Shown: one piece after another, positions 149-57,966 of the stretch
Numbering within the stretch: position 1 is the stretch's first letter
Layout of the letters: every line of letters starts with the position of its first letter
From: a virus
Reading direction: 5' to 3' (one strand)
Length of the DNA: 64,000 nucleotides
Virus record (IMG/VR): IMGVR_UViG_3300044782_000023
Program-made: the position numbers and the translations under genes
Notes under the pieces: model-generated
The model's database searches: none
Told to the model about the DNA's origin: nothing
Seen by the model: only the letters and a program-made list of their open reading frames with translations

Positions 149-154
149 GATCGC

Positions 155-12694: not shown

Positions 12695-12702
12695 GGGCTC
12701 CC

Positions 12703-14805: not shown

Positions 14806-14853
14806 ACCACCGTAGGATGACCAGTAGCGCACCATTCACGAAAGGCATCATCC

Positions 14854-15567: not shown

Positions 15568-15605
15568 CCTGTATGTTCTACTTTATCCGATAGGAGGGCG
15601 GCGAC

Positions 15606-16649: not shown

Positions 16650-16655
16650 CATGGC

Positions 16656-16961: not shown

Positions 16962-16990
16962 TGGACGAGAACAGCAACCAGGAGGACATC

Positions 16991-17520: not shown

Positions 17521-17522
17521 CC

Positions 17523-18304: not shown

Positions 18305-18309
18305 ATGAG

Positions 18310-19809: not shown

Positions 19810-19874
19810 CACTGCTCTGGCACACTAGGCTAGAGCACGTAGATGACGCCCCCGAGCGTCTATAGCAGAAGTAG

Positions 19875-31651: not shown

Positions 31652-31707
31652 AACCCCCAGCCCGGGGCGCCCCGGGCTGGTCCGTATGACCCTAGGAGGA
31701 TGCCGTG

Positions 31708-32046
31708 ATGGGCATCGAGAAGTTCATCCAGTACGTTTTGATCGCCGTGCTCGGATCAACCGGCGCGACCGCGTTGATCACCGGAGACTTCACCGACCGG
31801 GTGGTGCTCATCGGCCTAGCCGTCACCACGCTCGGCGCCGCCGGGACGTACCTGGCCGCGAACACGCCGGACCAGCCGTGGGCCAAGCAGGCCATCGGCA
31901 TCTTCACCGCCGCCGTCCTCGTCCTCGTGTCGGCCTGGACGGACCAGACCATCACCACCGCGGAATTCGTTCAGATCCTCCTGGCCGCAGTAGGGGCCTG
32001 GCAGGTCGGCACCGTAGCGAACACCACACGGACCCTGTCGAAGTAG
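31708..32046 (+). CDS. holin
   Basis: Small multi-TM protein after endolysin; AGGAGG RBS. Confidence 0.7.
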   Translation: MGIEKFIQYVLIAVLGSTGATALITGDFTDRVVLIGLAVTTLGAAGTYLAANTPDQPWAKQAIGIFTAAVLVLVSAWTDQTITTAEFVQILLAAVGAWQVGTVANTTRTLSK

Positions 32047-32053
32047 AGGAGAC

Positions 32054-32084
32054 AAGCCCCCTCACGAACGGTGAGGGGGCTTTC
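32054..32084. terminator. bidirectional terminator between lysis genes and the convergent T4SS-like operon
   Basis: AAGCCCCCTCAC-GAACG-GTGAGGGGGCTT. Confidence 0.75.
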
Positions 32085-32325
32085 CCTTATCCAATGCGTT
32101 GCGCACGCTCCCGTCGGACAGTGCCAGCCGGTGAATCATCTGGGAGTCGAAACCGTGGCAGAGCAGGTAGTCCCGGACGATCGCCCCGATCCGGCACTTC
32201 GGAGTACGGGTCTCCTGATGCAGGTCCACCAGTGCAACGGCCAGGTCGGCGCTGGCGGCTTCGAGTTCATTCTGTGCCCGCAACTTCCGCGCTGCGGCCA
32301 CCCCGACGTCATCTACCGCGCTCAT
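32062..32325 (-). CDS. hypothetical protein, 87 aa, last gene of the T4SS-like operon
   Basis: ATGA overlap with the upstream hydrolase gene. Confidence 0.55.
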   Translation of the reverse strand: MSAVDDVGVAAARKLRAQNELEAASADLAVALVDLHQETRTPKCRIGAIVRDYLLCHGFDSQMIHRLALSDGSVRNALDKGKPPHRS

Positions 32326-33254
32326 CGTGCTCCCACCATCTGCCAGTGCCAACCTTCGGGCTTGCTGCCACCAGGCTCAGCCCAGTCCGGGTGATGCCAG
32401 CCGAACCGCTTGCTGTTCTCATGCATCCAGACGTCGTATGCACTTGCGACGACCCACTGGCCGCCGTCTGGACCGCACAGGTCGAGCGCCAGCCCCCAGC
32501 CGTGGTTGGATGTGCCGGGGGTCGCCGCCAGGCCGGGCTTGCGCCGACGCACGTCGATCTGCGCGGCCAGCGACCGGTACGAATCGGTGATGCACGGCTT
32601 GGACCCGAAGCGTTGCTGATAGGCCCGCGCGAGTGAGTCGAACGAGTTGGCCGCGTCGGCACGCAGCCGGTGGCGCCGATCAGCCCAGAGGGTACACAGG
32701 GCGCTCGCCGGGATCATCCCGTTCTGGTACTGGCCTGCGTCAGCGGCGCACTTCCCGGCCGCAGGCACAACGCACGTCGGCTGAACATCAACGCCGGTCA
32801 GGAACTTACGGTACGAGCCGGACCAGTACGTCACCCAGGGGTTCCACGACTGTCCGGCGTCCGACCAGACGGCGAAGGCCATCTTCATGTTGTGGCCGGG
32901 GTCGGCCCAGTTGCCGGTGGCGAGGATCGCCTCATGGATCGAGTTGATCTGCATCAGGCCGTAATCGACGGACCCGTTGCCGTTCTGGTTGGTAGCCTTG
33001 GCGTCCCAGCCGGATTCGGCCCGCGCGACCGCGACGGCGATGTCCACGTCCTGGCCCCTGAACCCGGCTCGATAGGCGTGCGCTGACACAGCAGCGGCAT
33101 CCAGCCCGCCGGTCGGGGCAGCCACCGAACAGTCGGCCGTCTCGTCGCCGGTCATGCCGGGGAACTTCGGCGGGCCGGATAGGAAAGCCGTTGCCATCAG
33201 CGGCACCATGAAGACTCCGGCTATGGGGACCAGGATTAGGGCTGCGCGCTTCAC
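32322..33254 (-). CDS. VirB1-like peptidoglycan hydrolase: lytic transglycosylase + M15B (VanY-like) peptidase
   Basis: N-terminal TM; RAESGW and GLMQIN; SYRS, TSNHGWGLALD, EGWHW. Confidence 0.85.
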   Translation of the reverse strand: MKRAALILVPIAGVFMVPLMATAFLSGPPKFPGMTGDETADCSVAAPTGGLDAAAVSAHAYRAGFRGQDVDIAVAVARAESGWDAKATNQNGNGSVDYGLMQINSIHEAILATGNWADPGHNMKMAFAVWSDAGQSWNPWVTYWSGSYRKFLTGVDVQPTCVVPAAGKCAADAGQYQNGMIPASALCTLWADRRHRLRADAANSFDSLARAYQQRFGSKPCITDSYRSLAAQIDVRRRKPGLAATPGTSNHGWGLALDLCGPDGGQWVVASAYDVWMHENSKRFGWHHPDWAEPGGSKPEGWHWQMVGAR

Positions 33255-33730
33255 CGGGCGTACTCGATGTTGAGGACTTTCCAGGCCCCGTCGACGACGA
33301 TCATGTCGAGGACGAGGTCGCCGTCGGTGGTCGGGACGGATACCTTCTGGCGGGTGGGGCCGTCGAGCAGCACCTTGACGACGCCTGTGATCCGCTGGCC
33401 GGGCGGGGGTTTCGGTGCGTCGTTGACGGACTCGACCGCTTCCTGCTGCCCGAGCCGGGCGAACCCAGCGCGGTCACCCAGCAGGAACGCGCTGACGGCC
33501 TCCATGGCGATCGGAGCACTCGGTCCATACCCGGGCGGCGGTGACCCTAGCGCTGACGCTGGAGAGGGCGGCAGTAGTCCGGTGGACTGTGCTGTCGGCG
33601 TGGGCTGCATCGTCGGGAGGTTCCTGACCCGGCTGATGGTCAATGCCATGAACATGATGATGATGAGCGCACCGGCACCGGCCGCCATCATCTTCAGCCG
33701 CTGCGGGCTGTCGAACAACCAGGCGGTCAT
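33251..33730 (-). CDS. single-pass membrane protein, putative VirB8/TcpC-like, 159 aa
   Basis: One TM, Pro-rich linker, small alpha/beta C-terminal domain; position between VirB6-like and VirB1-like genes. Confidence 0.45.
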   Translation of the reverse strand: MTAWLFDSPQRLKMMAAGAGALIIIMFMALTISRVRNLPTMQPTPTAQSTGLLPPSPASALGSPPPGYGPSAPIAMEAVSAFLLGDRAGFARLGQQEAVESVNDAPKPPPGQRITGVVKVLLDGPTRQKVSVPTTDGDLVLDMIVVDGAWKVLNIEYAR

Positions 33731-33777
33731 TCGACGGGCCCCGTCTTCAGCGCGCGGGCTTCCTTCTCGGTCATCAT
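33727..33777 (-). CDS. 16-aa micro-ORF MMTEKEARALKTGPVE
   Basis: AAGGAG RBS; ATGA overlaps at both ends. Confidence 0.4.
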   Translation of the reverse strand: MMTEKEARALKTGPVE

Positions 33778-35531
33778 GGCCGGGCTCCTTCGTTGTCGTC
33801 AGAACGCTCGTACGGGGTGTACGGGCTGGACGCGTCGTCTGGTGGTGGTATGTCGCTCGCGTCGACATGGACTTCGTAAGCGGCAGGTAAGGCGTTGACG
33901 ATGTGGCCGGTCAGGGGTTCGGCGTCCACCGTGGTCGGGGTCTCCGGCACGAACGCCGGAGTCGGGTGGTAAATGTTCGCCTGCACCACTGTTGGCGTGG
34001 TGACGTCCTCCGACAGGCGCTCCGGTTCCTGCACCTTGTCCTCCACGGCTTTCGCCACGGCAGCACCGGCGAACGACCCTCCGACGTAGGAGATCAACGC
34101 GGTCTTCAGCAGTCGACCGATGATGCTGTGACCGTCCGCGCGCCCGAAAGACACGATGGCTTTGAATTTCGCGATCGGTCCGATCGCGGCCCAGGCGATG
34201 CCGGTGCCGATCATCAGCAGCAGCAGCGACCACCACAGGCTCACGCCCGGCGCCATGCACGCTTGCAGGTAAACCCCGAACAGCCACGAGCCGACCGCTG
34301 CGATCAGCACATAGACGGTGGCCTGAATAGCGTTGTTGATCAAACCCATTCCCAACTCCTGCCCGGTTCGGCGACCGATGCGAGGCTGGAGGATGGCGGC
34401 TGTCAGGACCAGCCAGAAGATCGCCAGCATGACTAGGACAATCGCACAGGCGATCATCAGGATGGCAACGGCCAGGCGGATCGCGCAGGCCGCGACGACA
34501 GTCAGCAGTTCCACCACCGTTTCCGTCGAACCTGACTCCTGGCCAGTCAGGTACCTATAGGCCGTCGGATCTTCCGCTTCCACCTTCGCGGCGATGTCCT
34601 TGAACTGATCAGCCTTCGTCTTCGTCAGCGCTTCGCGGGCCTTCGGCTGATCCTTCGGGTCCAACGCGTTGATCGAGTCGAGTTCCGTCCAGGAGACCCT
34701 GGTGCTGGCCAGGAGGTCCGGCCCATAGGTGGCGGCCACCGGAGTCACGGCGCTACCGAAGTTACGTCGCAGCCACCCCTGGTACTGAACGTTCTTCACG
34801 ACCTGGTTGGTGGCCGCGTCCGAGGGGTTCGCGCCGTCGTTCAGCGTGGCCACCAGCGTCCCTGCGGCCGTCTGACTGACTTCCGATGCGAGCATCGGGG
34901 ACAGCAGCAGCAGGCTAGAGATGGTGATGACAATGAAAACCCAGCCGACATTAGTTGCGGCGGAAGACATGTCACCGCTCTGAGCGCGATACAGCAGGAC
35001 GATGGTGGCGAAGGTGATCGCTAACGCCAGGAAAGGAACGAGGATGCTGGTATTCACCACGCCGGTAGCACGAGCCGCGAAGTCGTCAAGGAACGCGACC
35101 ACCCATCCGGGCTCCCAGGCTCGCCGGTCCACCGAATCTGTCAGCGACACCAGGCCGTCACCGATCGAGGTGATGGTGTTCGCGATCGCCGAGTCGGCAG
35201 ACGCGTTCGTTATCCGCGCCCACGATGTGGGGTCGATCGCGCATCCCAAGTCGTAGGTGTGTGAGCGAAGGCCCGCGAAGCCGCCGGTACTCCAGATGTG
35301 GTCGGGTGAGTTGTCCGACGTGACGACGATGGGGCGTTCACCCAGGAGCCCGGCCAGGCCAGTCTCCGGGGTGGCTGCGAACGGCGCCTGCTTCGGACAC
35401 ACCTCAACTCCGGGGATGTCCACTGACCTGACTGCGGCATCCGACGACGATGCGGCCCAGACGATCAGCAGCAGCCCGGCCGCGCAAAAGAACAGGAACA
35501 ACCGCAACCGCGAGTTCCATCGGCGCTTCAC
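33774..35531 (-). CDS. VirB6/TrbL/TcpH-like polytopic membrane protein, 585 aa
   Basis: Signal/TM N-terminus, several TM helices, low-complexity C-tail; immediately downstream of VirB4. Confidence 0.65.
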   Translation of the reverse strand: MKRRWNSRLRLFLFFCAAGLLLIVWAASSSDAAVRSVDIPGVEVCPKQAPFAATPETGLAGLLGERPIVVTSDNSPDHIWSTGGFAGLRSHTYDLGCAIDPTSWARITNASADSAIANTITSIGDGLVSLTDSVDRRAWEPGWVVAFLDDFAARATGVVNTSILVPFLALAITFATIVLLYRAQSGDMSSAATNVGWVFIVITISSLLLLSPMLASEVSQTAAGTLVATLNDGANPSDAATNQVVKNVQYQGWLRRNFGSAVTPVAATYGPDLLASTRVSWTELDSINALDPKDQPKAREALTKTKADQFKDIAAKVEAEDPTAYRYLTGQESGSTETVVELLTVVAACAIRLAVAILMIACAIVLVMLAIFWLVLTAAILQPRIGRRTGQELGMGLINNAIQATVYVLIAAVGSWLFGVYLQACMAPGVSLWWSLLLLMIGTGIAWAAIGPIAKFKAIVSFGRADGHSIIGRLLKTALISYVGGSFAGAAVAKAVEDKVQEPERLSEDVTTPTVVQANIYHPTPAFVPETPTTVDAEPLTGHIVNALPAAYEVHVDASDIPPPDDASSPYTPYERSDDNEGARP

Positions 35532-38200
35532 AGCATCTCCTCGTCCAGTAGCCAGTGGTGAGACGACCCGGCTGGAGCCGGGTCGGTCAGCAGCGCCGCT
35601 TTCAGCGCCGGATGGTAGTCGACGTCGACGCGCATGCCGCCAACATTGCCGTCCACGTCACGGTGGACCCATTCGCCGGGTACGGACGTGGACAGGTTCA
35701 TCAGCACCCCGGCGTAGCGGGGGTCGGTCAAGCCGAGCATGGCCATGGCCTCCAGCGCGGGCTCCGTGCTGGCCATCCGGCCCGCGAATACCGACGCGAT
35801 GAAGTTCTTCAATTCGCCTGAAAGCATCTGCGGGTTGATGCTTTTGACGCCGAGAGCCACATACAGGTTCCACTTGCTGTGGTCGCGTCCCAGCCGGGAG
35901 AACATGCTGCGACCGGGCCCGGAGTCGGTGAGCGACTCCGCTTCGTCGAAGAACACCGCTGCCCGCTGCTCACGCGGCTTGGAGTAGATCAGCCGGTGGG
36001 TGTAGAGCGCGGTCAGGCGCAATACCGCGTCAGCGCCGATTTCCGTCGGGTTCCAATCCCGGCGCGGGGTCCCGTCGGCGGCCCGGACGATGCCCGGCGT
36101 GGTGATCACGGTGAGGGTCTTGCTGTACTGGCCGGGCTCTACCGTCACGCCCCGGGGCGGGAACAGCAGGCGCAGCAGCGGGGCCGTGCTGGCGTCTACC
36201 AGCGCCCCCGCGACCGCGTCGGCGTGTACGTCCTCCAGTGTCACCAGGTTGTCCACCAGGTCCCAGAGGGTGCTGGTGGTTTCCCAGCCGGATCGGTCGG
36301 CGTGACGACGGGCGGCCAAGCGCAGTGTCTCCCGGGTCCGGCCCGACTCCCGGCTCCCATCGGCGACCAGATCTTCGGGTAGGCACCGCAGGGCCATATC
36401 GATGGCCAGGTCACGGCGTTCGGACCGGGCCTGCTCTACAGCGTCAGCCCAGTCACCGGGTTCCGGGTGGTCGGCGCGATGCGGGATACCGATCAGGCCG
36501 GGCGGGCTCAGGATGCCCTTGCGCCCGGTCAGGAGATTGACTTCCTGGGAGACGGCGGCGATCTCTGGCAGGTCGCACAGTTTCGCCAGCGGACCGGACG
36601 GGTCGTTGATGATCGTCATGATGCCCCGGCGTACCAGGTTGTACGCGATCGCTCCGAAGAGGACGGACTTGCCGGACCCGAGAGTGCCGATCATCAGGTG
36701 CATGTTCTGCGCCCGTCCGGTCCGCAGTCCTTCTGTGGCGTAGTGCGGGTCATGCATGACCGGGCGGCGCGAAGCGCCACGGGTGTGCCCAAGGTACGGA
36801 CCACGCGAGTCCCCGACGCTGGCGGTGGCGTTGGCCATCCCAGCCGTCAGGTACGGCAGCCGCAGGCGACGCTGATAGCCGACCCGGTCGAACGGTTCGG
36901 CTATCACGGTCGACTGGAGCATGAAGGATTGGCAGTCGGCACCAGTGAAATCCATCCGCAGACCGCTGGCGCTATACATGTGAGTGAACGAGGCACAGCG
37001 TTCTTCCACGACATCGGCCGCCGACAGGATCATCACGCCGTCGCTGTTGTAGCGGTCCTGGCCGGTGATAATCACGTTGATCTGACCCTGGAAGCGGGTG
37101 GCTTCCAGGGCCTGACCGTTGACAACCTGGTCGCGAGTGTTCAGCGCGACAGCGATGCCGTTGTCGATGACGGCCGGTGGGGTTTCCTTGTGCCAGCCGT
37201 AGTCGCGTTTGATGAACTCCGCCTTCCGCAGTTCCAGTTCGACCTCCGCCTTCATCTCCTCACCGGAGCGGATTCTGCCGACGACGCTCCATTCCACTGG
37301 GAACGGCGCCCCCATAGCGTCCCGGACCGACTCGGCGTGCACCTGCCACGGCGGCAGCCCGTTCTCCGGGTAGTTCAAATCAGCCAGCCGGGCGACCGTT
37401 AGTACGCGAGCCGCTGTCGTCGTCTTCCGGCCGTTGGCCCACGAGGTGACCGCCACAGTGCGTCCGAAAGGGGTCTCCACCCAGCGGATATCGTTGCCGA
37501 GCGCGGGGATTGCCAGTTCGTCCCAGCCGGAACGGGCCTGCACGCCGACCGGCTGCGTTCCTGGAGCCAGCGAGCGCATCCGCAGCCAGCCCTGCTCGAA
37601 CTCGGTCATCGGGCGCGAGCCCGCCCACCCGGACACGACGTCCGACAATCGCTTGACGTCCTCCAGTACCGGCAGCAGTGCCGAATGCGGCGCCCCGCCA
37701 GCCCGGTACGCCTCCAGGTGCTTGCGCAGGTCGAACCGGCTGTTCACCCGGGCGTTCAGGGTGAAGTAGCGGAACACCACCTTGTCGTCCATGCCGGAGC
37801 GAGCGATGACGTCCTGCTGGCGGACCAGGTGCGAGTTCCAGGTCTCGCACCCGCATCGGCCGCGCAGCAGGTCGCCCTTGGGCATCGACAGGTCGCAGGT
37901 GTGCACGTCCGGTGTCGGCGCGGGAGTCCTGGCGTCAAGTTGCGCCGCCCATGACTGGACGGGGTGTGGCCGGGTGGAAACCCGTTCGTGGTAGAACCGC
38001 CCGGCCAGGTTGCTGAAGACGTCAGCGTCCTGGTTCATCCGGGAGATTTTTGCGTCGTTTCCGGTGAAATCCCAGCGGGCAGGGCCGATCCGGTACCCGG
38101 CCCAGATGGTGCCGTCCTTCTGTACGGTCAGGTTCTCGATGATCTCCCGGGCGTTCGGGGCTAGCGGGGGCTGCTTGTGCTTCCACATCAGATCGTCCAC
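35528..38200 (-). CDS. VirB4-like (TcpF/ConE) conjugation ATPase, 890 aa
   Basis: Walker A GTLGSGKS, NDPSG, Walker B VFFDEAE, RDHSKWN...FIASVFAGR; size and context. Confidence 0.82.
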   Translation of the reverse strand: MDDLMWKHKQPPLAPNAREIIENLTVQKDGTIWAGYRIGPARWDFTGNDAKISRMNQDADVFSNLAGRFYHERVSTRPHPVQSWAAQLDARTPAPTPDVHTCDLSMPKGDLLRGRCGCETWNSHLVRQQDVIARSGMDDKVVFRYFTLNARVNSRFDLRKHLEAYRAGGAPHSALLPVLEDVKRLSDVVSGWAGSRPMTEFEQGWLRMRSLAPGTQPVGVQARSGWDELAIPALGNDIRWVETPFGRTVAVTSWANGRKTTTAARVLTVARLADLNYPENGLPPWQVHAESVRDAMGAPFPVEWSVVGRIRSGEEMKAEVELELRKAEFIKRDYGWHKETPPAVIDNGIAVALNTRDQVVNGQALEATRFQGQINVIITGQDRYNSDGVMILSAADVVEERCASFTHMYSASGLRMDFTGADCQSFMLQSTVIAEPFDRVGYQRRLRLPYLTAGMANATASVGDSRGPYLGHTRGASRRPVMHDPHYATEGLRTGRAQNMHLMIGTLGSGKSVLFGAIAYNLVRRGIMTIINDPSGPLAKLCDLPEIAAVSQEVNLLTGRKGILSPPGLIGIPHRADHPEPGDWADAVEQARSERRDLAIDMALRCLPEDLVADGSRESGRTRETLRLAARRHADRSGWETTSTLWDLVDNLVTLEDVHADAVAGALVDASTAPLLRLLFPPRGVTVEPGQYSKTLTVITTPGIVRAADGTPRRDWNPTEIGADAVLRLTALYTHRLIYSKPREQRAAVFFDEAESLTDSGPGRSMFSRLGRDHSKWNLYVALGVKSINPQMLSGELKNFIASVFAGRMASTEPALEAMAMLGLTDPRYAGVLMNLSTSVPGEWVHRDVDGNVGGMRVDVDYHPALKAALLTDPAPAGSSHHWLLDEEML

Positions 38201-38901
38201 TCCACTCGGTATTCGGTGCGGCCGACCCGGAAGCCCTGCGCCGTGCGCTCGATCATCTTGTGCCGTGGTTGCCTCGTCAGGGGGACGAGGCGTTTCTCAA
38301 CGATTGCGCCGGTCAGCGGTTGGGCGATCACTGGAGTTGCGGTCACTGGCGCCGCAGCGGCGGTCAGTGGCTCGGCAGCCACTGGGGTTGCGGTGGAGGT
38401 GAGCATCAGCGGGGCGACGTTCACCTCGATGGCGGGCCTCAGGCGGGGGCCTGAGGCGACCAGGCGAGGCAGGCGCAGCCAGTACCCGAAGGGACGATTC
38501 CAGTCCAGGTACCTGCCCCGACCGCGGACCACAAGGATCGGCAGCGCGAGCGCCGCCAGAAAAGCCACGGGCAGGAACGCCGGACGAATCCAGGTCATCG
38601 GGTTCGCCGAAACGACCAGGCAGACAACGGCCACTAGGGCAGCGATCAGCCTGAACCGCCGTCGGGGGCTGTCGGGGCTGGTCCGTTGGGCGATCGACCG
38701 GCCGCCGACCCAGGTAGCCCAGGCGACGACGATTCCGGCGGGGACAACGAACACCAGGAGGACCATGCCGACCAAAAGGACGGTGAACGCAAGCGCCATC
38801 TCCTCCAGCGTCCAGTCGAACGGGAACCGCATGCCCTTCGGTCCCAGGTAGGGCTTGCGGATCTGCCGCCCCGGGTCGTCGGCGATTTGCCGGGGGCTCA
38901 C
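38188..38901 (-). CDS. TcpE/VirB3-like membrane protein, 237 aa
   Basis: Multiple N-terminal TMs; directly upstream of VirB4. Confidence 0.55.
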   Translation of the reverse strand: MSPRQIADDPGRQIRKPYLGPKGMRFPFDWTLEEMALAFTVLLVGMVLLVFVVPAGIVVAWATWVGGRSIAQRTSPDSPRRRFRLIAALVAVVCLVVSANPMTWIRPAFLPVAFLAALALPILVVRGRGRYLDWNRPFGYWLRLPRLVASGPRLRPAIEVNVAPLMLTSTATPVAAEPLTAAAAPVTATPVIAQPLTGAIVEKRLVPLTRQPRHKMIERTAQGFRVGRTEYRVEWTI

Positions 38902-39011
38902 TTGATCAGCCAGGCGACGATGTCATCGCGGTAGAGGAACAGGTCCAGCGCGCCGAAAAACAGCGCGCTGATGGCCATCAGGGAGAGGACGCGCTCTGTC
39001 AGCGGGCTCAT
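38898..39011 (-). CDS. 37-aa single-TM protein (absent from ORF track)
   Basis: MSPLTERVLSLMAISALFFGALDLFLYRDDIVAWLIK; overlaps neighbours at both ends. Confidence 0.55.
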   Translation of the reverse strand: MSPLTERVLSLMAISALFFGALDLFLYRDDIVAWLIK

Positions 39012-39280
39012 CAGGACAGGATCTTCGTGATGGCTGTGAGCATGGCTGCGCCATACCCGGTGATGACGGCTGCGCCAGCGGCGAGCCCGAGCAGACTCAG
39101 GCAGATCATGGACGCTCCGACCATGCTGGCCGCCTGGCTGTAGTCACCGCGCTGGCCGTGGGTGAGCAGGCCCTTCAGGGTGAGGTAGACCAGCACGACC
39201 AGGCAGCCCAGCAGTAGGAAGCCCTTGGCCCAGATAAGTCCGTTCTCTAGCGCGATATTTGGTTCTGCGAGCAGGTGCAT
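39011..39280 (-). CDS. two-TM pilin/VirB2/TcpD-like protein, 89 aa
   Basis: GAAAGGA RBS; two hydrophobic helices joined by a short loop; first gene of operon. Confidence 0.55.
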   Translation of the reverse strand: MHLLAEPNIALENGLIWAKGFLLLGCLVVLVYLTLKGLLTHGQRGDYSQAASMVGASMICLSLLGLAAGAAVITGYGAAMLTAITKILS

Positions 39281-39317
39281 GACGATTCCTTTCGTGGGTG
39301 ACTATCGATCTGCTAAC

Positions 39318-39347
39318 AGAGTAGCAGACTTGACAACCGCTTGACAA
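39318..39347 (-). promoter_or_regulatory. promoter/operator for the T4SS-like operon
   Basis: TTGTCA-18nt-TACTCT on minus strand, containing AAGCGGTTGTCAA. Confidence 0.65.
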
Positions 39348-39350
39348 CGC

Positions 39351-39395
39351 AAAAAGGCCCGGCCGGTCCAGAGGCGAAATGCCTCCGGCCGGGCC
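39351..39395 (-). terminator. intrinsic terminator insulating the T4SS-like operon
   Basis: GGCCCGGCCGG/CCGGCCGGGCC stem followed by TTTTT on minus strand. Confidence 0.7.
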
Positions 39396-39412
39396 GGGCC
39401 CTGATGGAGCGC

Positions 39413-39613
39413 CTACCAGCGCGGCGACTCGTAATGATCCTGGCTGGTGAGGTGCCAGCCCTGGCACATCCCGCATTCGTAATAGCGGACCGGGGTGGCG
39501 TGCCGAACCTGTCCTGCGGTGGCCTTGATCCGGCTCAACGCCTTCTTGGCTTCATCCGAATCTCGATACCGGACCTTCCTGCTCGGGCAGTCCGCACGGC
39601 GCGAACGCTTCAC
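39413..39613 (-). CDS. small Zn-binding hypothetical protein
   Basis: YYECGMCQGWHLTS motif. Confidence 0.65.
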   Translation of the reverse strand: MKRSRRADCPSRKVRYRDSDEAKKALSRIKATAGQVRHATPVRYYECGMCQGWHLTSQDHYESPRW

Positions 39614-40077
39614 AGCGACTCGTAGTCCGGATCATGCACATGCGGCTCGAACATGTCGGACACCCGGTGCTCGGGCCGGTGCAGCGCCGCGTGTTCCTTC
39701 TCAAGCCCGGCCAGGGACGGGTCGTCGCTCATCTGGGCATGAAAGATCCGCAGGTGCGCGAGCATCGAACCAGGGTCCATGAACGTCACCGGCGTCGCGT
39801 ACGGTTTCGCCTTGTCACGCTTGCCGATCTCGATCCCGCCGAACTTCGTGGCGATCAGTCCTTTCGCCGTCGCCTCGGTGACCCGGGGGTCAGCCTGCGG
39901 TGGGCGGCGGCTGACCAGTTCCACCGTGCCGGTGCGGACGCCCGTCCATGTCTGCGTCGGATGCGACAGCGTGAACACGCGCTTCATGTGGTCTGCGGTG
40001 GTGATCACCCACTCCTTGCCGCCACCGGCAACGACGTCACCGCCATGAACGTCTGACCAGTCCACGGATTCACTCAT
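39610..40077 (-). CDS. hypothetical protein, 155 aa
   Basis: Coupled ORF in leftward operon. Confidence 0.6.
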   Translation of the reverse strand: MSESVDWSDVHGGDVVAGGGKEWVITTADHMKRVFTLSHPTQTWTGVRTGTVELVSRRPPQADPRVTEATAKGLIATKFGGIEIGKRDKAKPYATPVTFMDPGSMLAHLRIFHAQMSDDPSLAGLEKEHAALHRPEHRVSDMFEPHVHDPDYESL

Positions 40078-51263: not shown

Positions 51264-51460
51264 AAATCCTCCGGCTTGTCGACGGCAAGGTCTATGAGGC
51301 GGTTGAAACTCGGCCGACCGTCGTCTTCGATGTGCACACCGGAGCCCAGGACGTCCTGGTGGCCGAGACGCTGGACGGTGACGATGTCCTCGGGCCCGGC
51401 GACGTCGCCGGAACCAGTACTTGGCTGGACGGCTTCGGGGTCGTCACCGGCGCGTCGTGA
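51260..51460 (+). CDS. hypothetical protein, 66 aa
   Basis: Coupled ORF. Confidence 0.5.
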   Translation: MKILRLVDGKVYEAVETRPTVVFDVHTGAQDVLVAETLDGDDVLGPGDVAGTSTWLDGFGVVTGAS

Positions 51461-53946: not shown

Positions 53947-56622
53947 TCATGACGTCACCAGTTCCTTGAAGTTGTCGGGCAGAAGGCATGTCGGCATTCC
54001 GAGGCGGAGAAGAGTGGTCCAATCCTCTTCGGTGTTGGTGTAGTTCGGGTCGGCGTCCGCCGGACATGGCAACCAATAGGCTTGGCATTCGACGGGCGTG
54101 CCGTCACCGATCTGTACGGTGGCCCGGCCTTTCGCCTTGCTGGGCACATCGCGGCCGACGCCTGAGTCTCCGTAGATCATCAGGGCTCGGATGCCGTCGA
54201 TGGCACCAACGGTCGCTCGGCCCGGCAGGTTCTGCCGAACACCGGACGTACCGAACATCTGCGAGTCCGGGCTCTGCGTGCTGATGATGATGTGGATGCC
54301 GCACTTGCGGGCCATCGCAATGACGTCGGCCAGCGCCCGGATCGCCCCGGGGACCTTCTCGCCCGGCCGCTTGAGCGGATTATCATCGTCATCCTTCTCT
54401 CCAGACGTCCATACATCGAACACCCGGTCGTAGTAGGCCTTGAACTCGTCGAAGACGCAAATCCACTTCTCGTGGCTGTCAAGGGGTATGCCGCGCTCCT
54501 CGAAAGCGGTGTAGCGGCGGTCCATCTCGCGCTGGATCATGAACGCGACATCCCACAGGTCGCGGGGCTTGGTCACGATACTCTTCACGCCGGGCCAGCC
54601 CCGGAAGCCCACCATCTCCACTCGCTTCGGGTCCGACAGAATCAGGCGAACCTCCTTGCGGGAGGCCGAATCAGAGGCGGCGGCGATGATGGAGCGGAGG
54701 ATTGAGGTGTTATGCGTCGGGACGCATGCCTCTCCCGCCAGATACAGGCTGCTGGCGGAGTCCACTGTGATGCACCGGACGGGGACGCTCTCGACTGGAT
54801 TGACCGCGACGATGGAACGACGTCGAGACTTCCCATCGCTGACGGCGATGCCCTGACGATCCAACTTCCGAGGATTGCGGAAGACTGCTTCATGTGCGGT
54901 GAAACAGATCCGGTATGCCGTCGAACTGGCTTCGGTGCGACCCTTGCAGCGCTTGGTTCTCATGGTGGCCTTGAATCCCAGCCCCCGAGATAGTTCGAGA
55001 ACACCCCTGGCCAGTTTCTCGCTGGTCGACGTGTATTCGACGGTCCCCAGCGCAACATTCCCATCGCCGTCAAACAGACCGGCGAGCAACGCCTTCCGCT
55101 GCTCGATCGAGCCCCGGAGGTACGCCTCGGGAATGTGCTTGTTTCCCCACACGCCGAGCCTGCGCAGCCGAGACTCCACACCATCCCTCGTGACTGAAAC
55201 GGCGAATCGGACGTCATGGGCATCAGACCTCGGGTCTTTCCGTACTGAAGTGATCCGTGCGACCTTGCCGATCTCCTCGATCATGAAAGCAAGATCCTGT
55301 CCACCTGTGGTGAAGGACGCCTTCGTGCTTCCACCGTCTGCAAGCCACGTTCCGAACAGATAGGGATCTAGCGGCAGTTCCTGCGCTGGGTAATCAAGCG
55401 GACCGGCGATGGGAATCGCATGGTTGCGGGCGCCATCCTTGCGGCCGACTAACGTGGCGCGGACTTCCTCTGTCGTGCGTACCTGTGGCGGCCTGTCGTA
55501 CATCCGGCTGGCCGTCGTACTGGTCAGCCAGTTATGATCCGCGTCGGCGACGATCGTCGCTCCATCGCTGAAGACGACCTCGTAGCATGGACGTCCGTAC
55601 CGGACCTGATGAGCGTAGACAACGCGGCACGCCTTGCCGTCCTCGTCGAAAACCTCCTGACCCTGGACCAGTTCGCCCATGGTCGCCCAGCCCTTCGGCG
55701 TTGGCACGGGGGTGTCAAGCGCCAGGGCCTTCCCACTGTTAGTTTCTCCGATGATCAGCAAGTGGGACGTGTCCATCAGGTTGAATGAAACCCCGTCGGC
55801 GATCGGCAGAACGTACCAGGGGCGGCCCTCTTCCAGCCCAGGATGGTGAACTATCTTCGGCATCGCCGGACGTCGGGTGAACGACGCGCGGTCGTTCTGG
55901 GTGTCCCAGTCGGCGATCCAGCGGTCCCCGATCTTGGCCTGGATCTTGTTCAGCAGATCGAACCGCTTGTCGCTCTCATGGTCGGGGAATCCCGTGCCGA
56001 TGTAGGACACAGTGAAGGCGTTCATGCCCTGCACGTTGAGAATGCGCACGTCCCCCTTGGGGCCGACCGCTTCTCGCACGGCCATGACGATCCGTGCGAC
56101 GTCCAGTCCGCCGGGCTCGTCCTGCGAAACCGGTGAAATGGTTTTCCGGGGGCGGCGGCGCGCTGCACCTTTCTGGACCAAATAGGTGCCGAATGTGGCA
56201 CCGATGGACAGGCCTGACCAGAGCGCCCACTCCCGCGCGGTCGCCTCGTCGTGCTGAAACACGCTCTGCCAGGTGTACCCACCGAGGATCATTGACCCCG
56301 ATCCATACACCAGGCTTGGGGTCCATCGGTGCGGAACCCGGTTGCGCCGGGCGCGGTCGGCCGCCTCACGCGCCGTCTTCTTCTTGTGGCAGGACGTCAG
56401 CCGAGTGGACCCCTTCGGATTGCACAGCACCTGGAGGTTATCCGGGTCCGTGCGCTGCTCGGGCGTACTCTCGCTCTCCGGAATGATGTGGTCGATGTTG
56501 ACCGCGGATATGCTGAAGTACTTCCGGCACCCGGCGCATTGGTACCTGCGTGGGTCGCTCTTATGCTGGGCGAGGTCCAGCACGAGGCGCCGGGTGGCCG
56601 GGAGCAGTTTCGTCTGACTCAT
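53947..56622 (-). CDS. HNH nuclease - 2 TM - FtsK/SpoIIIE-type ATPase fusion with intein (891 aa precursor, about 551 aa spliced)
   Basis: CAGC...NIDHIIP...NLQVLC...CHKKKT; spliced Walker A GETNSGK/T, DPKRVE, Walker B VFDEF, ARKCGIHIIISTQ. Confidence 0.82.
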   Translation of the reverse strand: MSQTKLLPATRRLVLDLAQHKSDPRRYQCAGCRKYFSISAVNIDHIIPESESTPEQRTDPDNLQVLCNPKGSTRLTSCHKKKTAREAADRARRNRVPHRWTPSLVYGSGSMILGGYTWQSVFQHDEATAREWALWSGLSIGATFGTYLVQKGAARRRPRKTISPVSQDEPGGLDVARIVMAVREAVGPKGDVRILNVQGMNAFTVSYIGTGFPDHESDKRFDLLNKIQAKIGDRWIADWDTQNDRASFTRRPAMPKIVHHPGLEEGRPWYVLPIADGVSFNLMDTSHLLIIGETNSGKALALDTPVPTPKGWATMGELVQGQEVFDEDGKACRVVYAHQVRYGRPCYEVVFSDGATIVADADHNWLTSTTASRMYDRPPQVRTTEEVRATLVGRKDGARNHAIPIAGPLDYPAQELPLDPYLFGTWLADGGSTKASFTTGGQDLAFMIEEIGKVARITSVRKDPRSDAHDVRFAVSVTRDGVESRLRRLGVWGNKHIPEAYLRGSIEQRKALLAGLFDGDGNVALGTVEYTSTSEKLARGVLELSRGLGFKATMRTKRCKGRTEASSTAYRICFTAHEAVFRNPRKLDRQGIAVSDGKSRRRSIVAVNPVESVPVRCITVDSASSLYLAGEACVPTHNTSILRSIIAAASDSASRKEVRLILSDPKRVEMVGFRGWPGVKSIVTKPRDLWDVAFMIQREMDRRYTAFEERGIPLDSHEKWICVFDEFKAYYDRVFDVWTSGEKDDDDNPLKRPGEKVPGAIRALADVIAMARKCGIHIIISTQSPDSQMFGTSGVRQNLPGRATVGAIDGIRALMIYGDSGVGRDVPSKAKGRATVQIGDGTPVECQAYWLPCPADADPNYTNTEEDWTTLLRLGMPTCLLPDNFKELVTS
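54709..55728 (-). mobile_element. class-3 intein with LAGLIDADG endonuclease (340 aa) in the FtsK P-loop
   Basis: ALALDTP start, DHNW, VRCITV, VPTHN/Thr+1; LFGTWLADG and LAGLFDGDG. Confidence 0.92.
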
Positions 56623-56780
56623 GACCGACCTTCCTGTCCGACGCCCCGACACAGGCGAGTATCGGAGTCGGCGGCGAAATGTGGAGCGATCGTACGATCA
56701 TCGTTGACGCGCTTGATCTTTCCGCATGCTGGGCATGTCGCCACGTCATCTATGACGTGGCGACCCTTGCGATCGAACAT
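56619..56780 (-). CDS. 53-aa Zn-ribbon-like protein (absent from ORF track)
   Basis: MFDRKGRHVIDDVATCPACGK...PH...C; GGAGG RBS; TAATG and ATGA overlaps. Confidence 0.55.
   Translation of the reverse strand: MFDRKGRHVIDDVATCPACGKIKRVNDDRTIAPHFAADSDTRLCRGVGQEGRS
56737..56764. repeat. perfect 13-bp inverted repeat with 2-nt spacer
   Basis: GTCGCCACGTCAT-CT-ATGACGTGGCGAC. Confidence 0.9.
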
Positions 56781-57082: not shown

Positions 57083-57112
57083 AGAGTACATCTGTTGACA
57101 TTGGCCTGTCAA
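57083..57112 (-). promoter_or_regulatory. promoter/operator for the HNH-FtsK operon
   Basis: TTGACA-18-TACTCT with TTGACA-N6-TGTCAA palindrome. Confidence 0.7.
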
Positions 57113-57966
57113 CCCAGCAGGACCTTCTCCCACCGGCCGATCTTCACCGCAGCGGCGGCCAGCGTAATCGTCTCCCCCGACCAGTCCTTCGTCTCCCTGA
57201 CCATGTCATCAGGAGTCCACGGGGACCGCTCGCGAGCCATCAGCCAGTCATTCCACAGCGGGTGCTCCCGAGCGGGCCACCGCTTCTGCCCCAACGCCGG
57301 TCTCGGCGAAACAGGCCGAGGCGCCGCGACCGGCGAAACAGGCCGAGGCGCCGCGACCGGCGGTCTCGGCGAAACCGGCTTCGGAGCCGCTGCGGCGACC
57401 GTGACGGTAGACGTGGGCGCCGCCGTCAGTCCACGGGCCTTCGCCGGGTTCGTCTCACCGGCCCAGACGGCGGCCCGAAAAGCCTTCGCCGACAGCCTCG
57501 GAAACAGCACCCACTGAATGGCCGTGAACTTCACCGCACGCCCGTCGATCAACTCCAGTGCCCGCAGCCGGTCACGAGACATCGAACGGGACCTGATCGC
57601 CCACAACACCGGCGACAGCGTCGACAGGACACCGAACACAATCGCCGGAGCGTTCGGTGCCACGAGGCGCGGCGCGAAATGGGCGTAGTTCAGGAGCCCG
57701 GCCAGCAGGCCCACCCCGTACGACCCCAAGCGCAGGCGCAGCGACGCGTCCCCGGCCAGTAGGGCGCGGTGCGCCTCGGCGGCCAGGTAGACCCCGATGG
57801 ACTCCACCGCGAGCGCGAAACCGACCGCTACGTACCAGAAACGGGAGCCAGGCGTCAGGTGCTCGTGCGCCCACATCACCTGACCGTAAGCGGCCACGGT
57901 GTTCACCAACAACAGCGGAACGACCAGCGCGACGTTCGCGATCAGGTCAGGGTGCTTCTTCTTCAT
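57109..57966 (-). CDS. DUF2637/Spd-like membrane protein with Pro-rich linker and C-terminal helical domain
   Basis: Four TMs, PVSPRP repeats; architecture like actinomycete plasmid spread proteins. Confidence 0.5.
   Translation of the reverse strand: MKKKHPDLIANVALVVPLLLVNTVAAYGQVMWAHEHLTPGSRFWYVAVGFALAVESIGVYLAAEAHRALLAGDASLRLRLGSYGVGLLAGLLNYAHFAPRLVAPNAPAIVFGVLSTLSPVLWAIRSRSMSRDRLRALELIDGRAVKFTAIQWVLFPRLSAKAFRAAVWAGETNPAKARGLTAAPTSTVTVAAAAPKPVSPRPPVAAPRPVSPVAAPRPVSPRPALGQKRWPAREHPLWNDWLMARERSPWTPDDMVRETKDWSGETITLAAAAVKIGRWEKVLLG

What the first reader, a model, noticed from the sequence alone, without database searches (positions are those of the whole stretch)
32062..39347. Conjugative type IV secretion operon embedded in an intact tailed-phage genome
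Seen: directly after holin, on the opposite strand, is a tightly coupled operon (ATGA/GTGA overlaps). Its order is 2-TM pilin-like, 37-aa TM, TcpE-like, 890-aa ATPase (GTLGSGKS / FFDE), polytopic 585-aa membrane protein, single-pass 159-aa protein, transglycosylase+peptidase, 87-aa ORF. It has its own promoter (39318-39347) and an upstream terminator, and shares a convergent terminator with the lysis genes. Established: this order matches Gram-positive mating-pair-formation modules (VirB2/B3/B4/B6/B8/B1; Tcp/Con types), and tailed phages and phage-plasmids rarely carry them. Inference: a hybrid element with two horizontal routes, virion and cell-to-cell channel. The operon sits where temperate siphoviruses keep the integrase/immunity cassette.
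Basis: partly seen in the sequence, partly recalled or inferred. Interest (0 to 1): 0.95.

Follow-up and report, generated by a model that had tools for sequence, protein, structure and literature searches.

The report
Tailed phage carrying a secretion channel
An uncultured virus of high-GC Gram-positive bacteria, like its whole lineage of roughly 76-81 kb relatives, carries a conserved gene set for the membrane channel that plasmids use for mating. This suggests, but does not prove, that these viruses can also pass DNA straight from cell to cell.

Summary
At 32062-39347 (minus strand) there is a tightly coupled eight-gene operon. It has its own sigma-70-like promoter, an upstream terminator, and a terminator shared convergently with the holin gene.

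- **What it encodes.** The 890-aa ATPase is a full-length VirB4 (Foldseek best match R388 TrwK, E 9e-24, well ahead of HerA and TrwB). Its neighbours are a polytopic VirB6/TrbL-like protein, a bitopic protein with an NTF2/VirB8-type domain, an SLT+VanY wall hydrolase, and TcpE/PrgI-like and pilin-like small membrane proteins.
- **Where it sits.** It lies between the lysis genes and the Prim-Pol replication genes of a tailed actinophage. An independent metagenome assembly bridges both junctions.
- **Relatives.** Every relative whose gene neighbourhood was seen, about a dozen down to 41% ATPase identity, has the same placement. One is a 77.9-kb genome with terminal repeats. Their VirB4s form one clade, separate from the chromosomal and plasmid homologues of Actinomycetota. 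All operon genes are under purifying selection.
- **What is missing.** No relaxase, integrase or partition gene was found. The only candidate DNA motor is a conserved HNH-FtsK protein.
- **Verdict.** A phage-borne type IV secretion module is well supported. Conjugative function remains an inference. This scan found the same kind before on other DNA. I found no paper describing it.

The parts
39356..39400 (-). Terminator-like GC hairpin with T-run just upstream of the operon promoter
   Evidence: Sequence read; inverted repeat I13; terminator scan. The same hairpin precedes the operon in L003, L004 and L012.
39318..39347 (-). Sigma-70-like promoter: TTGTCA, 18 nt, TACTCT, with a doubled GTTGTCAAG motif
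   Evidence: A promoter of the same form is conserved upstream of the operon in L003, L004, L012 and L005. The doubled motif also stands before right-arm operons at 44679, 50064, 50769 and 60733.
39011..39280 (-). 89-aa two-TM small membrane protein (VirB2/pilin-like position)
   Evidence: TM prediction. ESM Atlas look-alikes are small 2-TM clusters, some carrying TrbC/T4SS_pilin/Maff2 (0.84-0.91, lead only). Orthologues exist in L003, L004 and L012. dN/dS 0.27 against L003.
38898..39011 (-). 37-aa single-TM ORF
   Evidence: GC3 0.89. Relatives have short ORFs of 31-55 aa at the same place. Its reality as a gene is not otherwise tested.
38188..38901 (-). 237-aa membrane protein, TcpE/PrgI (VirB3)-like
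   Evidence: 2-3 TM. Conserved N-terminal motif and NRP..YW motif in 7 orthologues. Nearest ESM Atlas cluster is the TcpE family of Actinomycetota, 0.89. Predicted contact with the VirB4 N-domain has weak support only: 0.52 against best control 0.00.
35528..38200 (-). 890-aa VirB4-family ATPase
   Evidence: Pfam AAA_10 2e-15. NCBIfam TcpF 4e-9. A profile against PDB is best on 4AG5 VirB4, 9e-7. The AF2 model (pLDDT 86.8) matches full-length TrwK/VirB4 of R388 at E 9e-24, TM 0.55-0.60, against HerA 2e-9 and TrwB 2e-7. Walker A and B are intact. dN/dS 0.11.
33774..35531 (-). 585-aa polytopic membrane protein, VirB6/TrbL-like
   Evidence: Signal plus about 6 TM. Homologous to the protein following VirB4 in Streptomyces plasmid NZ_CP029542 (26%, 2e-31) and in L010, and adjacent to VirB4 in 77 of 80 chromosomal loci. 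ESM Atlas look-alikes carry TrbL. No direct Pfam TrbL hit.
33251..33730 (-). 159-aa bitopic protein with extracytoplasmic NTF2-like (VirB8/TcpC-type) domain
   Evidence: Alignment A2. AF2 C-terminal domain has pLDDT above 90. Top VIA-align matches: DotI Z 10.5, TraM(R64) 10.2, IcmL-like 10.0, VirB8 9.2, TraM(pIP501) 9.1, PrgL 8.9, TcpC 8.8. Generic NTF2 proteins score similarly.
32322..33254 (-). 310-aa secreted cell-wall hydrolase (SLT lytic transglycosylase + VanY-type peptidase), VirB1 analogue
   Evidence: Pfam SLT_3 7e-17, VanY 5e-10, SLT 8e-8. N-terminal signal/TM. A hydrolase (SLT with VanY, M23 or VldE; VanY alone in L010) closes the cassette in the relatives; the Streptomyces plasmid NZ_CP029542 has NlpC/P60 there.
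32062..32325 (-). 87-aa soluble ORF closing the operon
   Evidence: ATGA coupling. Orthologues in L003, L004 and L012. dN/dS 0.30. No family match.
32053..32080 (.). Bidirectional terminator hairpin shared with the convergent holin-like gene (31705-32046)
   Evidence: Sequence read.
53947..56652 (-). HNH-FtsK/SpoIIIE protein interrupted by an intein: candidate DNA motor / coupling protein for the channel (inferred link)
   Evidence: Pfam HNH, FtsK_SpoIIIE and intein/LAGLIDADG domains. Homologous to the FtsK gene next to the VirB4 cassette on plasmid NZ_CP029542. There is one FtsK_SpoIIIE gene in each of G001 and G003-G005, and it lies 1.5 kb from the cassette in L006.
57109..57966 (-). DUF2637-like membrane protein shared with an ICE-like relative
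   Evidence: Weak Pfam DUF2637 hit, below the family cut-off. 41% identical to the DUF2637 protein of L010, which carries the same VirB4 cassette. Present in G001.

Best explanation
The operon is a functional, vertically inherited monoderm-type type IV secretion module. It comprises a VirB4 ATPase, a VirB6-like channel protein, a VirB8-like protein, a VirB1-like wall hydrolase and VirB3/TcpE-like and small membrane proteins. An ancestor of this uncultured actinophage lineage captured it once from actinobacterial plasmid/ICE transfer systems.

It is its own transcription unit, driven by a host-type promoter rather than by read-through from the late genes. Shown: it encodes the parts of an envelope-spanning channel. 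Inferred: that channel moves DNA out of the infected or carrier cell into a touching neighbour. The cargo is most likely the element's own genome, pumped by the conserved membrane-anchored HNH-FtsK protein in the relaxase-free, double-stranded manner of Streptomyces TraB. This would give the phage a virion-independent route of spread.
For: Identity of the parts:
- VirB4 by sequence and full-length fold.
- NTF2/VirB8-type fold behind a TM anchor.
- SLT+VanY hydrolase.
- VirB6-like partner homologous to the one that follows VirB4 in plasmids and chromosomes.
- TcpE-like protein, with weak support for binding VirB4 (0.52 against control 0.00).

Same gene order, plus an FtsK gene, on Streptomyces plasmid NZ_CP029542.

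In the phage, not beside it:
- Synteny tail-lysis-cassette-PrimPol in L003, L004, L005, L006, L012, L013 and two further contigs.
- Portal and VirB4 lie on the same record in G003 (80.7 kb), G004 (76 kb) and G005 (77.9 kb, direct terminal repeats).
- Both junctions are bridged by the independent run X4.

Single old capture: a 41-member clade holds all 8 verified phage contexts. It is split from the chromosomal/plasmid clade by a branch of 0.91 with 100% support.

Still in use: dN/dS of 0.11-0.36 for the seven genes with a reliable orthologue in L003, and invariant Walker motifs.

Own promoter and terminator are conserved in relatives.

Transfer role of the family:
- A VirB4-like gene is required for conjugation of pRAW (PMC4173767).
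- The SLP2.19-23 cassette is required for SLP2 transfer (PMC2782261).
- A Streptomyces plasmid-phage with a tra locus, pZL12, is on record (cited in PMC3583192).
Against: - No relaxase: PF03432 and PF08751 are absent, and no relaxase domain appeared in any ORF scanned.
- No integrase, serine recombinase, ParA or ParB in the window or in G001 and G003-G005.
- No member of the phage clade occurs in 185,579 species genomes; the best match is 34%. There is therefore no sign of a stable donor state.
- The link between the HNH-FtsK protein and the channel rests only on co-occurrence.
- In the one metatranscriptome that holds this phage, RNA contigs tile the structural genes, but only one 262-nt contig lies on the operon.
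- VirB6 and VirB3 assignments rest on leads, not on profile hits.
- Bacillus phage SPP1 has an early, non-essential VirB4/TrwB-like ATPase with membrane partners of unknown role (PMC6316719). A phage-internal use is therefore possible.
Confidence: 0.5

Rival explanations
1. The module is a phage-internal translocon used during the infection cycle, as proposed for SPP1 gp31-gp32. It would be made early in the infected cell to handle phage or host DNA or proteins at the membrane (completion of genome entry, superinfection exclusion, host takeover). It would not serve cell-to-cell transfer.
For: - The lineage shows no lysogeny or plasmid-maintenance genes.
- The operon shares the doubled promoter motif with right-arm (early-type) operons.
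- SPP1 offers a precedent: a non-essential early VirB4/TrwB-like ATPase next to membrane proteins (PMC6316719).
- No relaxase.
Against: - The cassette carries a secreted wall hydrolase and a VirB8-type extracytoplasmic domain. These are parts needed to cross the wall outward.
- It is orthologous gene for gene to plasmid and ICE cassettes.
- It has no detectable similarity to any isolated phage, SPP1 included.
Confidence: 0.27
2. The channel secretes proteins rather than DNA, or remodels the wall. It could be an effector or toxin delivery system against neighbours, or a lysis/release aid for thick-walled or hyphal hosts.
For: - T4SSs include protein-secreting members (general knowledge; review PMC12857230).
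- The cassette sits next to the lysis genes and ends in a two-domain hydrolase.
- No relaxase was found.
Against: - No candidate effector gene is conserved with the cassette.
- The operon is separated from the lysis genes by a terminator and has its own promoter.
- The conserved companion gene is a DNA translocase.
Confidence: 0.12
3. There is no hybrid. The region is an assembly chimera, or an ICE/plasmid segment lying next to or inserted recently into a prophage, carried as passive cargo.
For: - The operon is inverted relative to the oriented relatives.
- It has its own promoter and terminators, like a moron.
- Its nearest non-phage homologues are plasmid and chromosomal.
Against: - Independent contigs bridge both junctions.
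- About a dozen divergent relatives (41-92% ATPase identity) from different metagenomes keep the cassette at the same place, including a genome with terminal repeats.
- The phage VirB4s are monophyletic.
- Purifying selection acts on the operon genes tested against L003.
- No GC shift.
- No flanking repeats or integrase.
Confidence: 0.03

Closest known systems
VirB4 cassette of actinobacterial plasmids and chromosomal elements (e.g. Streptomyces sp. NEAU-S7GS2 linear plasmid NZ_CP029542; Rhodococcus, Prescottella and Gordonia plasmids; more than 580 chromosomal loci in Nocardioides, Kineosporia, Dactylosporangium, Glycomyces and others)
   Same: - Same order on NZ_CP029542: two small ORFs, ATPase of about 900 aa, large polytopic protein, protein of about 170 aa, wall hydrolase, with an FtsK/SpoIIIE gene nearby.
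- The ATPase (25-34%), the polytopic protein (22-30%) and FtsK are detectably homologous.
   Different: - Those loci have no phage structural genes within 10 kb.
- They form a separate VirB4 clade.
- Plasmid NZ_CP029542 uses NlpC/P60 as its hydrolase, and the ICE-like locus L010 VanY alone, rather than SLT+VanY.
- The plasmid cassettes shown here are themselves uncharacterised.
[quoted passage not shown]
   Same: Both are co-transcribed membrane proteins plus a VirB4-like ATP-binding protein. The SLP2 set is reported as required for conjugal transfer (PMC2782261).
   Different: - Homology to the phage genes was not tested here, because no SLP2 sequence was at hand.
- The cmd genes act in sporulation and do not replace the plasmid genes.
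- No phage context.
Monoderm conjugative T4SSs: pCW3 Tcp (TcpF/H/C/G/E/A), pCF10 Prg/Pcf, pIP501 Tra, ICEBs1 Con
   Same: - Same minimal part list: VirB4 (TcpF hit 4e-9), VirB6-like, VirB8/TcpC-like NTF2 protein, wall hydrolase, and a TcpE/PrgI-like small membrane protein.
- The Tcp system also uses an FtsK-like coupling protein (my own knowledge of TcpA).
   Different: - Only remote sequence similarity.
- No relaxase or oriT was found here.
- The host element is a tailed phage, not a plasmid or ICE.
pRAW-type mycobacterial conjugative plasmids
   Same: An actinobacterial T4SS-like locus with VirB4 and a TcpC/VirB8-like protein but no recognisable VirB3 or VirB6. The virB4-like gene is experimentally needed for conjugation (PMC4173767).
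   Different: - pRAW also needs a type VII system and has a TraA relaxase and VirD4.
- Mycobacterium plasmids were not among the tblastn matches.
Bacillus phage SPP1 gp31/31.1/31.2/gp32 module (also Geobacillus phage GBK2)
   Same: A tailed phage encoding a large ATPase with VirB4/TrwB/FtsK-like similarity next to small membrane proteins, proposed to form a translocon of unknown role (PMC6316719).
   Different: - SPP1 has no VirB6-, VirB8- or VirB1-like genes.
- No detectable sequence similarity to this ATPase.
- Different phylum.
Streptomyces plasmid-phage pZL12
   Same: An actinobacterial element that is both a tailed phage and conjugally transferable. [quoted passage not shown]
   Different: - pZL12 is a ParAB-bearing plasmid (PMC4487206) with a tra locus.
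- It was not among the plasmid matches to this VirB4.
- The present lineage has no partition or replication-initiator genes that I could recognise.

Membership tests
Type IV secretion system, monoderm (Gram-positive / MPF-FATA-like) minimal set | VirB4-family ATPase with N-terminal and C-terminal (RecA-like) domains and intact Walker A/B | tested here: met
   AAA_10 2e-15; TcpF 4e-9; profile against 4AG5, 9e-7. The model aligns over about 900 columns to TrwK/VirB4, E 9e-24, TM 0.55-0.60, 13 orders of magnitude better than HerA, DndH or TrwB. GTLGSGKS and FFDE are present.
Type IV secretion system, monoderm (Gram-positive / MPF-FATA-like) minimal set | VirB6/TrbL/PrgH/TcpH-like polytopic membrane protein next to VirB4 | tested here: inconclusive
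   Position and topology fit. It is homologous to the protein that follows VirB4 in plasmids and in 77 of 80 chromosomal loci. ESM Atlas look-alikes carry TrbL in 11-25% of members. None of 9 orthologues hits Pfam TrbL. Not folded.
Type IV secretion system, monoderm (Gram-positive / MPF-FATA-like) minimal set | VirB8/TcpC/PrgL-like bitopic protein with NTF2-like domain | tested here: met
   N-terminal TM, linker and 90-residue domain (pLDDT above 90). The top three of 48,161 chains are DotI, TraM and IcmL-like (Z 10.0-10.5), with VirB8, TrwG, PrgL, TcpC and TraM(pIP501) at Z 8.8-9.2. Caveat: unrelated NTF2 proteins reach Z 9-10, so the fold alone is not specific.
Type IV secretion system, monoderm (Gram-positive / MPF-FATA-like) minimal set | VirB3/PrgI/TcpE-like small membrane protein binding VirB4 | tested here: inconclusive
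   No Pfam hit. The nearest ESM Atlas cluster is the TcpE family, 0.89. Complex prediction gives weak support: 0.52 against best control 0.00, runs agree in at least 85% of contacts, partner pLDDT at least 63. In the tool's calibration the pass mark was reached by 58 of 80 solved complexes and 2 of 110 mismatched pairs, but a pass at 0.60 or under came from only 7 of those 80 and from both mismatches, so it is weak.
Type IV secretion system, monoderm (Gram-positive / MPF-FATA-like) minimal set | VirB1-like peptidoglycan hydrolase | tested here: met
   SLT_3 7e-17, SLT 8e-8 and VanY 5e-10, with a signal peptide.
Self-transmissible conjugative element (conjugative plasmid / ICE) | Relaxase with oriT | tested here: not met
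   No relaxase domain in any window ORF scanned. PF03432 and PF08751 are absent from G001 and G003-G006, although their controls ring. Other MOB classes and oriT were not searched.
Self-transmissible conjugative element (conjugative plasmid / ICE) | Type IV coupling protein (VirD4 or TcpA/FtsK type) | tested here: inconclusive
   No second AAA_10 or VirD4 gene in G001 or G003-G005. One FtsK_SpoIIIE gene per genome, fused to HNH in the window and in L006. Its homologue lies beside the cassette on plasmid NZ_CP029542. Coupling to the channel is untested.
Self-transmissible conjugative element (conjugative plasmid / ICE) | Stable maintenance in a donor (integrase, or replication/partition) | tested here: not met
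   PF00589, PF00239, PF13614, PF01656 and PF02195 are absent from G001 and G003-G005. None was found in the window.
Tailed phage (Caudoviricetes) | Terminase, portal, major capsid, tape measure, tail and lysis genes in one colinear block | tested here: met
   PHROG hits for TerL 4e-122, portal 1e-98, MCP 3e-40, TMP 7e-44, tail proteins and endolysin. Portal is 57% identical to Arthrobacter phages of the Bridgette group. Relatives are 76-81 kb, and one has direct terminal repeats with CheckV completeness 100%.
Phage-plasmid | Plasmid replication and partition genes in a phage genome, extrachromosomal prophage state | tested here: not met
   No ParA/ParB. Replication is of the Prim-Pol/D5 type common in phages. 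The physical state in cells is not testable here.
SPP1 gp31-gp32-type phage module | Sequence relationship to SPP1 gp32 and its small membrane partners | tested here: not met
   tblastn of the ATPase and of the VirB6-like protein against 50,697 phage records gave no match. There is only a local PHROG hit (phrog_24614, 2e-5) over the P-loop region.

The most novel reading that the evidence does not exclude
A lineage of apparently non-temperate, terminal-repeat tailed phages uses a plasmid-derived type IV secretion channel plus an HNH-FtsK pump. With these it passes its double-stranded genome directly from an infected cell into touching neighbours (or across hyphal cross-walls) before lysis. This would be virion-independent cell-to-cell spread for a bacterial virus, without relaxase and without a lysogenic donor.
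Probability: 0.3. Interest if true: 0.95.

Novelty: new variant of a known kind. Interest (0 to 1): 0.8.

Why it matters
Phages and conjugative elements are treated as the two separate engines of horizontal gene transfer, each with its own machinery, host-range rules and defences. A deep, conserved phage lineage that keeps a complete minimal type IV secretion set under purifying selection would blur that division.

- If the channel moves the phage genome, receptor-based host range, antibody or DNase sensitivity, and burst-based models of spread would not fully apply to these viruses. Phage DNA could then enter cells that lack the receptor.
- If it does something else, such as entry, exclusion or secretion, it is a new phage use for a T4SS. 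That might also explain the long-unexplained SPP1 gp32-type modules.

Either way the question is directly testable once a host is found. The relaxase-free pairing of an HNH-FtsK protein with a VirB4 channel is also a lead for actinobacterial conjugation itself.

Tried and rejected
- **Isolated phages.** Megablast of the operon, and tblastn of the ATPase and the VirB6-like protein, against 50,697 phage records gave no match.
- **Own genome.** None is held.
- **Invertible switch.** There are no flanking inverted repeats, so the inversion relative to relatives is an evolutionary rearrangement.
- **Pfam TrbL.** No hit on nine VirB6-like orthologues.
- **Foldseek on the 159-aa model.** Only generic NTF2 proteins at E of about 2e-3. 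The exhaustive VIA search was needed to see the VirB8-class matches.
- **FtsK tblastn against phages.** Swamped by the intein and uninformative.
- **RNA runs.** None was listed for the operon. The one metatranscriptome that holds the phage shows almost nothing on the operon. This is contig-level evidence only.
- **Small right-arm proteins and the rest of relative G001.** Pfam and PHROG scans found no repressor, integrase, relaxase or partition gene.
- **pZL12 paper.** Not held, so its tra genes could not be compared.
- **SLP2.** No sequence at hand, so that link is by description only.
- **DUF2637 literature search.** Nothing useful.
- **Complex prediction.** VirB4 N-domain with the 237-aa protein gave weak support only.

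Full report
**1. The observation**

The window is 61-67% GC throughout, with no compositional break at the operon. On the minus strand between 39280 and 32062 lie eight ORFs with high third-position GC. Their start and stop codons overlap as TGATG, GTGA, GTGA, GTGA and ATGA; the only gap is 43 nt, before the 159-aa gene.

- 89 aa with two TM segments;
- 37 aa with one TM;
- 237 aa with two to three TM;
- an 890-aa soluble ATPase with GTLGSGKS and FFDE;
- 585 aa with a signal sequence and about six TM;
- a single-pass 159-aa protein;
- a 310-aa protein with a signal peptide;
- an 87-aa ORF.

Upstream there is a GC hairpin with a T-run (39356-39400). It is followed by TTGTCA, 18 nt and TACTCT (39347-39318), a Shine-Dalgarno sequence and the ATG. 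A second hairpin (about 32053-32080) separates the operon end from the convergent holin-like gene.

The flanks are phage genes:
- Upstream: TerS, a 1376-aa intein-bearing TerL, portal, major capsid protein, tape measure, tail and collar proteins, and endolysin.
- Downstream: Prim-Pol/D5 primase-helicase, exonuclease and Endo VII.

**2. It is not an assembly artefact or an adjacent island**

The stretch occurs in sediment and freshwater-sediment metagenomes. Contigs of an independent 2018 run (X4) cross both junctions (31000-32176 and 37481-40000) in the window's orientation at 99% identity or more.

More telling are the relatives. Each one whose gene neighbourhood I could see has the cassette right after the tail and lysis genes, with the Prim-Pol gene close by on one side or the other:
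- L003: 92% ATPase identity.
- L004 (G001): 67%.
- L012: 62%.
- L013: 53%.
- the contig of P0025: 53%.
- L005: 49%.
- the contig of P0028: 48%.
- L006: 41%.

An alignment-based scan of IMG/VR added five more records. Three of them are near-complete and also hold a portal gene 58-79% identical to the window's: G003 (80.7 kb), G004 (76 kb) and G005 (77.9 kb, with direct terminal repeats and CheckV completeness 100%). The cassette is therefore a core module of a phage lineage with genomes of about 76-81 kb.

**3. What the genes are**

*ATPase.* It hits Pfam AAA_10 (2e-15) and NCBIfam TcpF (4e-9). A 21-sequence profile finds the VirB4 structure 4AG5 first in the PDB (9e-7). The AlphaFold model (pLDDT 86.8, pTM 0.82) aligns over about 900 columns, N-terminal domain included, to TrwK/VirB4 in the R388 T4SS structures (E 9e-24, TM 0.55-0.60). 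DndH, HerA and TrwB follow only at 5e-10 to 2e-7.

*159-aa protein.* It has a TM anchor, a Pro/Ser linker and a confidently folded 90-residue alpha+beta domain. In an exhaustive comparison with 48,161 chains, the three best matches are the VirB8-class proteins DotI, TraM(R64) and an IcmL-like protein (Z 10.0-10.5). VirB8, TrwG, PrgL, TcpC and TraM/TraH of pIP501 follow at Z 8.5-9.2. Generic NTF2 proteins score in the same range, so this is consistent with VirB8 rather than proof.

*310-aa protein.* It combines a lytic transglycosylase with a VanY-type peptidase.

*585-aa protein.* It gives no Pfam hit, even across nine orthologues. However, it is homologous to the protein that follows VirB4 on a Streptomyces plasmid and in an ICE-like contig, and in 77 of 80 chromosomal loci. 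Its nearest ESM Atlas clusters carry TrbL/VirB6.

*Small membrane proteins.* The nearest Atlas cluster of the 237-aa protein is a TcpE-family cluster of Actinomycetota (0.89). A predicted complex with the VirB4 N-domain got weak support only (0.52 against best control 0.00). The 89-aa protein resembles small two-TM proteins of conjugative systems. These three assignments are leads, not findings.

**4. Where the module comes from**

No isolated phage has a detectable homologue of the ATPase or the VirB6-like protein.

Plasmids of Streptomyces, Rhodococcus, Prescottella, Gordonia and others do, at 25-28% identity over the full length. The 45.8-kb linear plasmid NZ_CP029542 has the same order: two small ORFs, ATPase, a 784-aa protein, a 177-aa protein and an NlpC/P60 hydrolase. 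An FtsK/SpoIIIE gene lies 2.6 kb away.

In 185,579 species genomes there are more than 580 relatives, all at 34% identity or less. They occur in Nocardioides, Kineosporia, Marmoricola, Dactylosporangium, Glycomyces and others. None has homologues of this phage's structural genes within 10 kb.

A maximum-likelihood tree of 72 ATPases separates a 41-member clade (the window plus the metagenomic proteins P0001-P0040) from all chromosomal and plasmid sequences. The separating branch is 0.91 substitutions per site with 100% SH-aLRT support. The eight members whose phage context I verified are spread through that clade, including its deepest split. This fits one old capture followed by vertical descent with the phage. 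The tree is midpoint-rooted, so direction is inferred from distribution, not shown.

Between the window and L003, dN/dS is 0.11 for VirB4 and 0.19-0.36 for the other six genes with a reliable orthologue.

**5. Regulation and orientation**

In every relative for which I hold an oriented locus, the cassette points the same way as the tail and lysis genes. In the window alone it is inverted. No flanking inverted repeats exist, so this is a fixed rearrangement, not a switch.

In the co-directional relatives, too, a terminator hairpin and the same TTGTCA/TTGACA, 17-18 nt, TATGGT-type promoter stand between the lysis genes and the cassette. The cassette is therefore an independent transcription unit everywhere.

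Its doubled GTTGWCAAG motif recurs in front of several right-arm operons, which suggests co-regulation with non-structural genes.

One freshwater-sediment metatranscriptome holds this phage at 99% identity or more. RNA contigs tile 616-2478 and almost all of 9661-20000, unevenly, as RNA would rather than contaminating DNA. In 32062-39347 only a single 262-nt contig lies on the operon. The tool warns that contigs cannot rank expression. I take this only as a hint that the cassette is not part of the late regulon.

**6. What is missing**

No relaxase domain appeared in any ORF of the window that I scanned or in the remainder of G001.

In G001 and in G003-G005, six-frame searches found none of the following, although every control rang:
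- tyrosine or serine recombinase;
- PF03432 or TrwC relaxase;
- ParA (AAA_31, CbiA) or ParB.

Each genome has exactly one VirB4-type AAA_10 gene and one FtsK/SpoIIIE gene. In the window the latter carries an N-terminal HNH domain and an intein. It is homologous to the FtsK gene beside the cassette on plasmid NZ_CP029542.

No member of the phage clade sits in any sequenced genome. The lineage therefore looks non-temperate, or its hosts are unsampled.

**7. Reading**

Shown:
- It is a complete minimal monoderm T4SS part list.
- It is conserved, selected and independently transcribed.
- It is a core module of a tailed-phage lineage.
- It derives from the same family as actinobacterial plasmid and ICE cassettes.

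Established elsewhere:
- VirB4-like genes of actinobacterial plasmids are needed for conjugation (pRAW, PMC4173767).
- A six-gene cassette with a VirB4-like ATPase is needed for SLP2 transfer (PMC2782261).
- Streptomyces TraB moves double-stranded DNA without a relaxase (review PMC12857230).
- A Streptomyces plasmid-phage with a tra locus exists (pZL12, cited in PMC3583192).

Inferred: the channel exports DNA, probably the phage genome, to neighbouring cells, with HNH-FtsK as the motor. I put this at about one half.

The main rival is a phage-internal translocon of the kind suspected for SPP1 gp31-32 (PMC6316719). The apparent lack of a lysogenic or plasmid state favours it.

**8. Novelty**

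Full-text searches for phage genomes with VirB4 plus structural genes found nothing beyond the SPP1 remark. A recent T4SS review does not mention phages.

This scan has reported the same kind on other DNA: a 76-kb soil actinophage (e1-5347164) and further phage lineages (e1-3508054, e1-3286158). The window is thus another member of a still unpublished class. I file it as a new variant of a known kind: a known machine in an unexpected carrier, without the usual DNA-processing partner.

Noticed in passing
window 32062-39400 versus L003, L004, L005, L006, L012, L013: The whole cassette, with its promoter and upstream terminator, is inverted in this genome relative to every relative with an oriented locus. 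That includes L003, which is 92% identical. No inverted repeats flank it.
   Followed up: partly
window 616-2478 and 9661-20000: A freshwater-sediment metatranscriptome (run X11) has contigs at 99% identity or more that tile the TerS region and the capsid-to-tail genes. The deepest lies over 9661-13157. This suggests the phage was being transcribed in situ.
   Followed up: partly
window 1-155: Contigs of two other runs (X4 DNA, X11 RNA) match the window from position 155, the first base of tRNA-Met. To the left of it they carry a different sequence. This is a variable boundary or a genome-end effect at the tRNA.
   Followed up: no
window 2564-6694 and 53947-56652: Both the large terminase (1376 aa) and the FtsK-like protein (901 aa) are interrupted by inteins with homing-endonuclease domains. 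The FtsK orthologues in relatives are 528-565 aa and lack the intein.
   Followed up: partly
window 39329/39340, 44679/44690, 50064/50075, 50769/50780, 60733/60744: A doubled GTTGWCAAG motif with 11-bp spacing stands in front of the T4SS operon and several right-arm operons. There are 33 single matches against 9 expected. It is probably a shared promoter or operator element.
   Followed up: partly
L035 (Nocardioides ungokensis chromosome) 301-5761: Next to the chromosomal VirB4/VirB6-like pair lies a divergent cluster: a 452-aa AAA_10 ATPase, an EccE-like protein, a TrbL/VirB6-like protein and an M23 peptidase. This may be a cmdABCDEF-type or second secretion-like system.
   Followed up: no
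G006 (IMGVR_UViG_2923649072_000003, provirus, 85 kb) and G007 (IMGVR_UViG_3300028578_000003, 163 kb): Two IMG/VR records hold VirB4 genes of the distant (27-30%) chromosomal/plasmid type. They also hold a portal homologue (25-26%). G006 also has an integrase and an FtsK gene. These are either further phage-T4SS combinations or ICEs caught inside provirus calls.
   Followed up: no
window 51421-52743; L006 17091-17534 and 21344-21814; L010 5628-6401: A YdjM-like membrane hydrolase and a JAB/JAMM protease recur in the phage relatives. YdjM also occurs in the ICE-like contig that shares the VirB4 cassette.
   Followed up: no
contig of P0025 (JGI 3300043313, 76 kb): A variant layout. The Prim-Pol gene lies between the lysis genes and the cassette, and three extra genes (175, 521 and 98 aa) are inserted between the VirB8-like gene and the hydrolase.
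   Followed up: no
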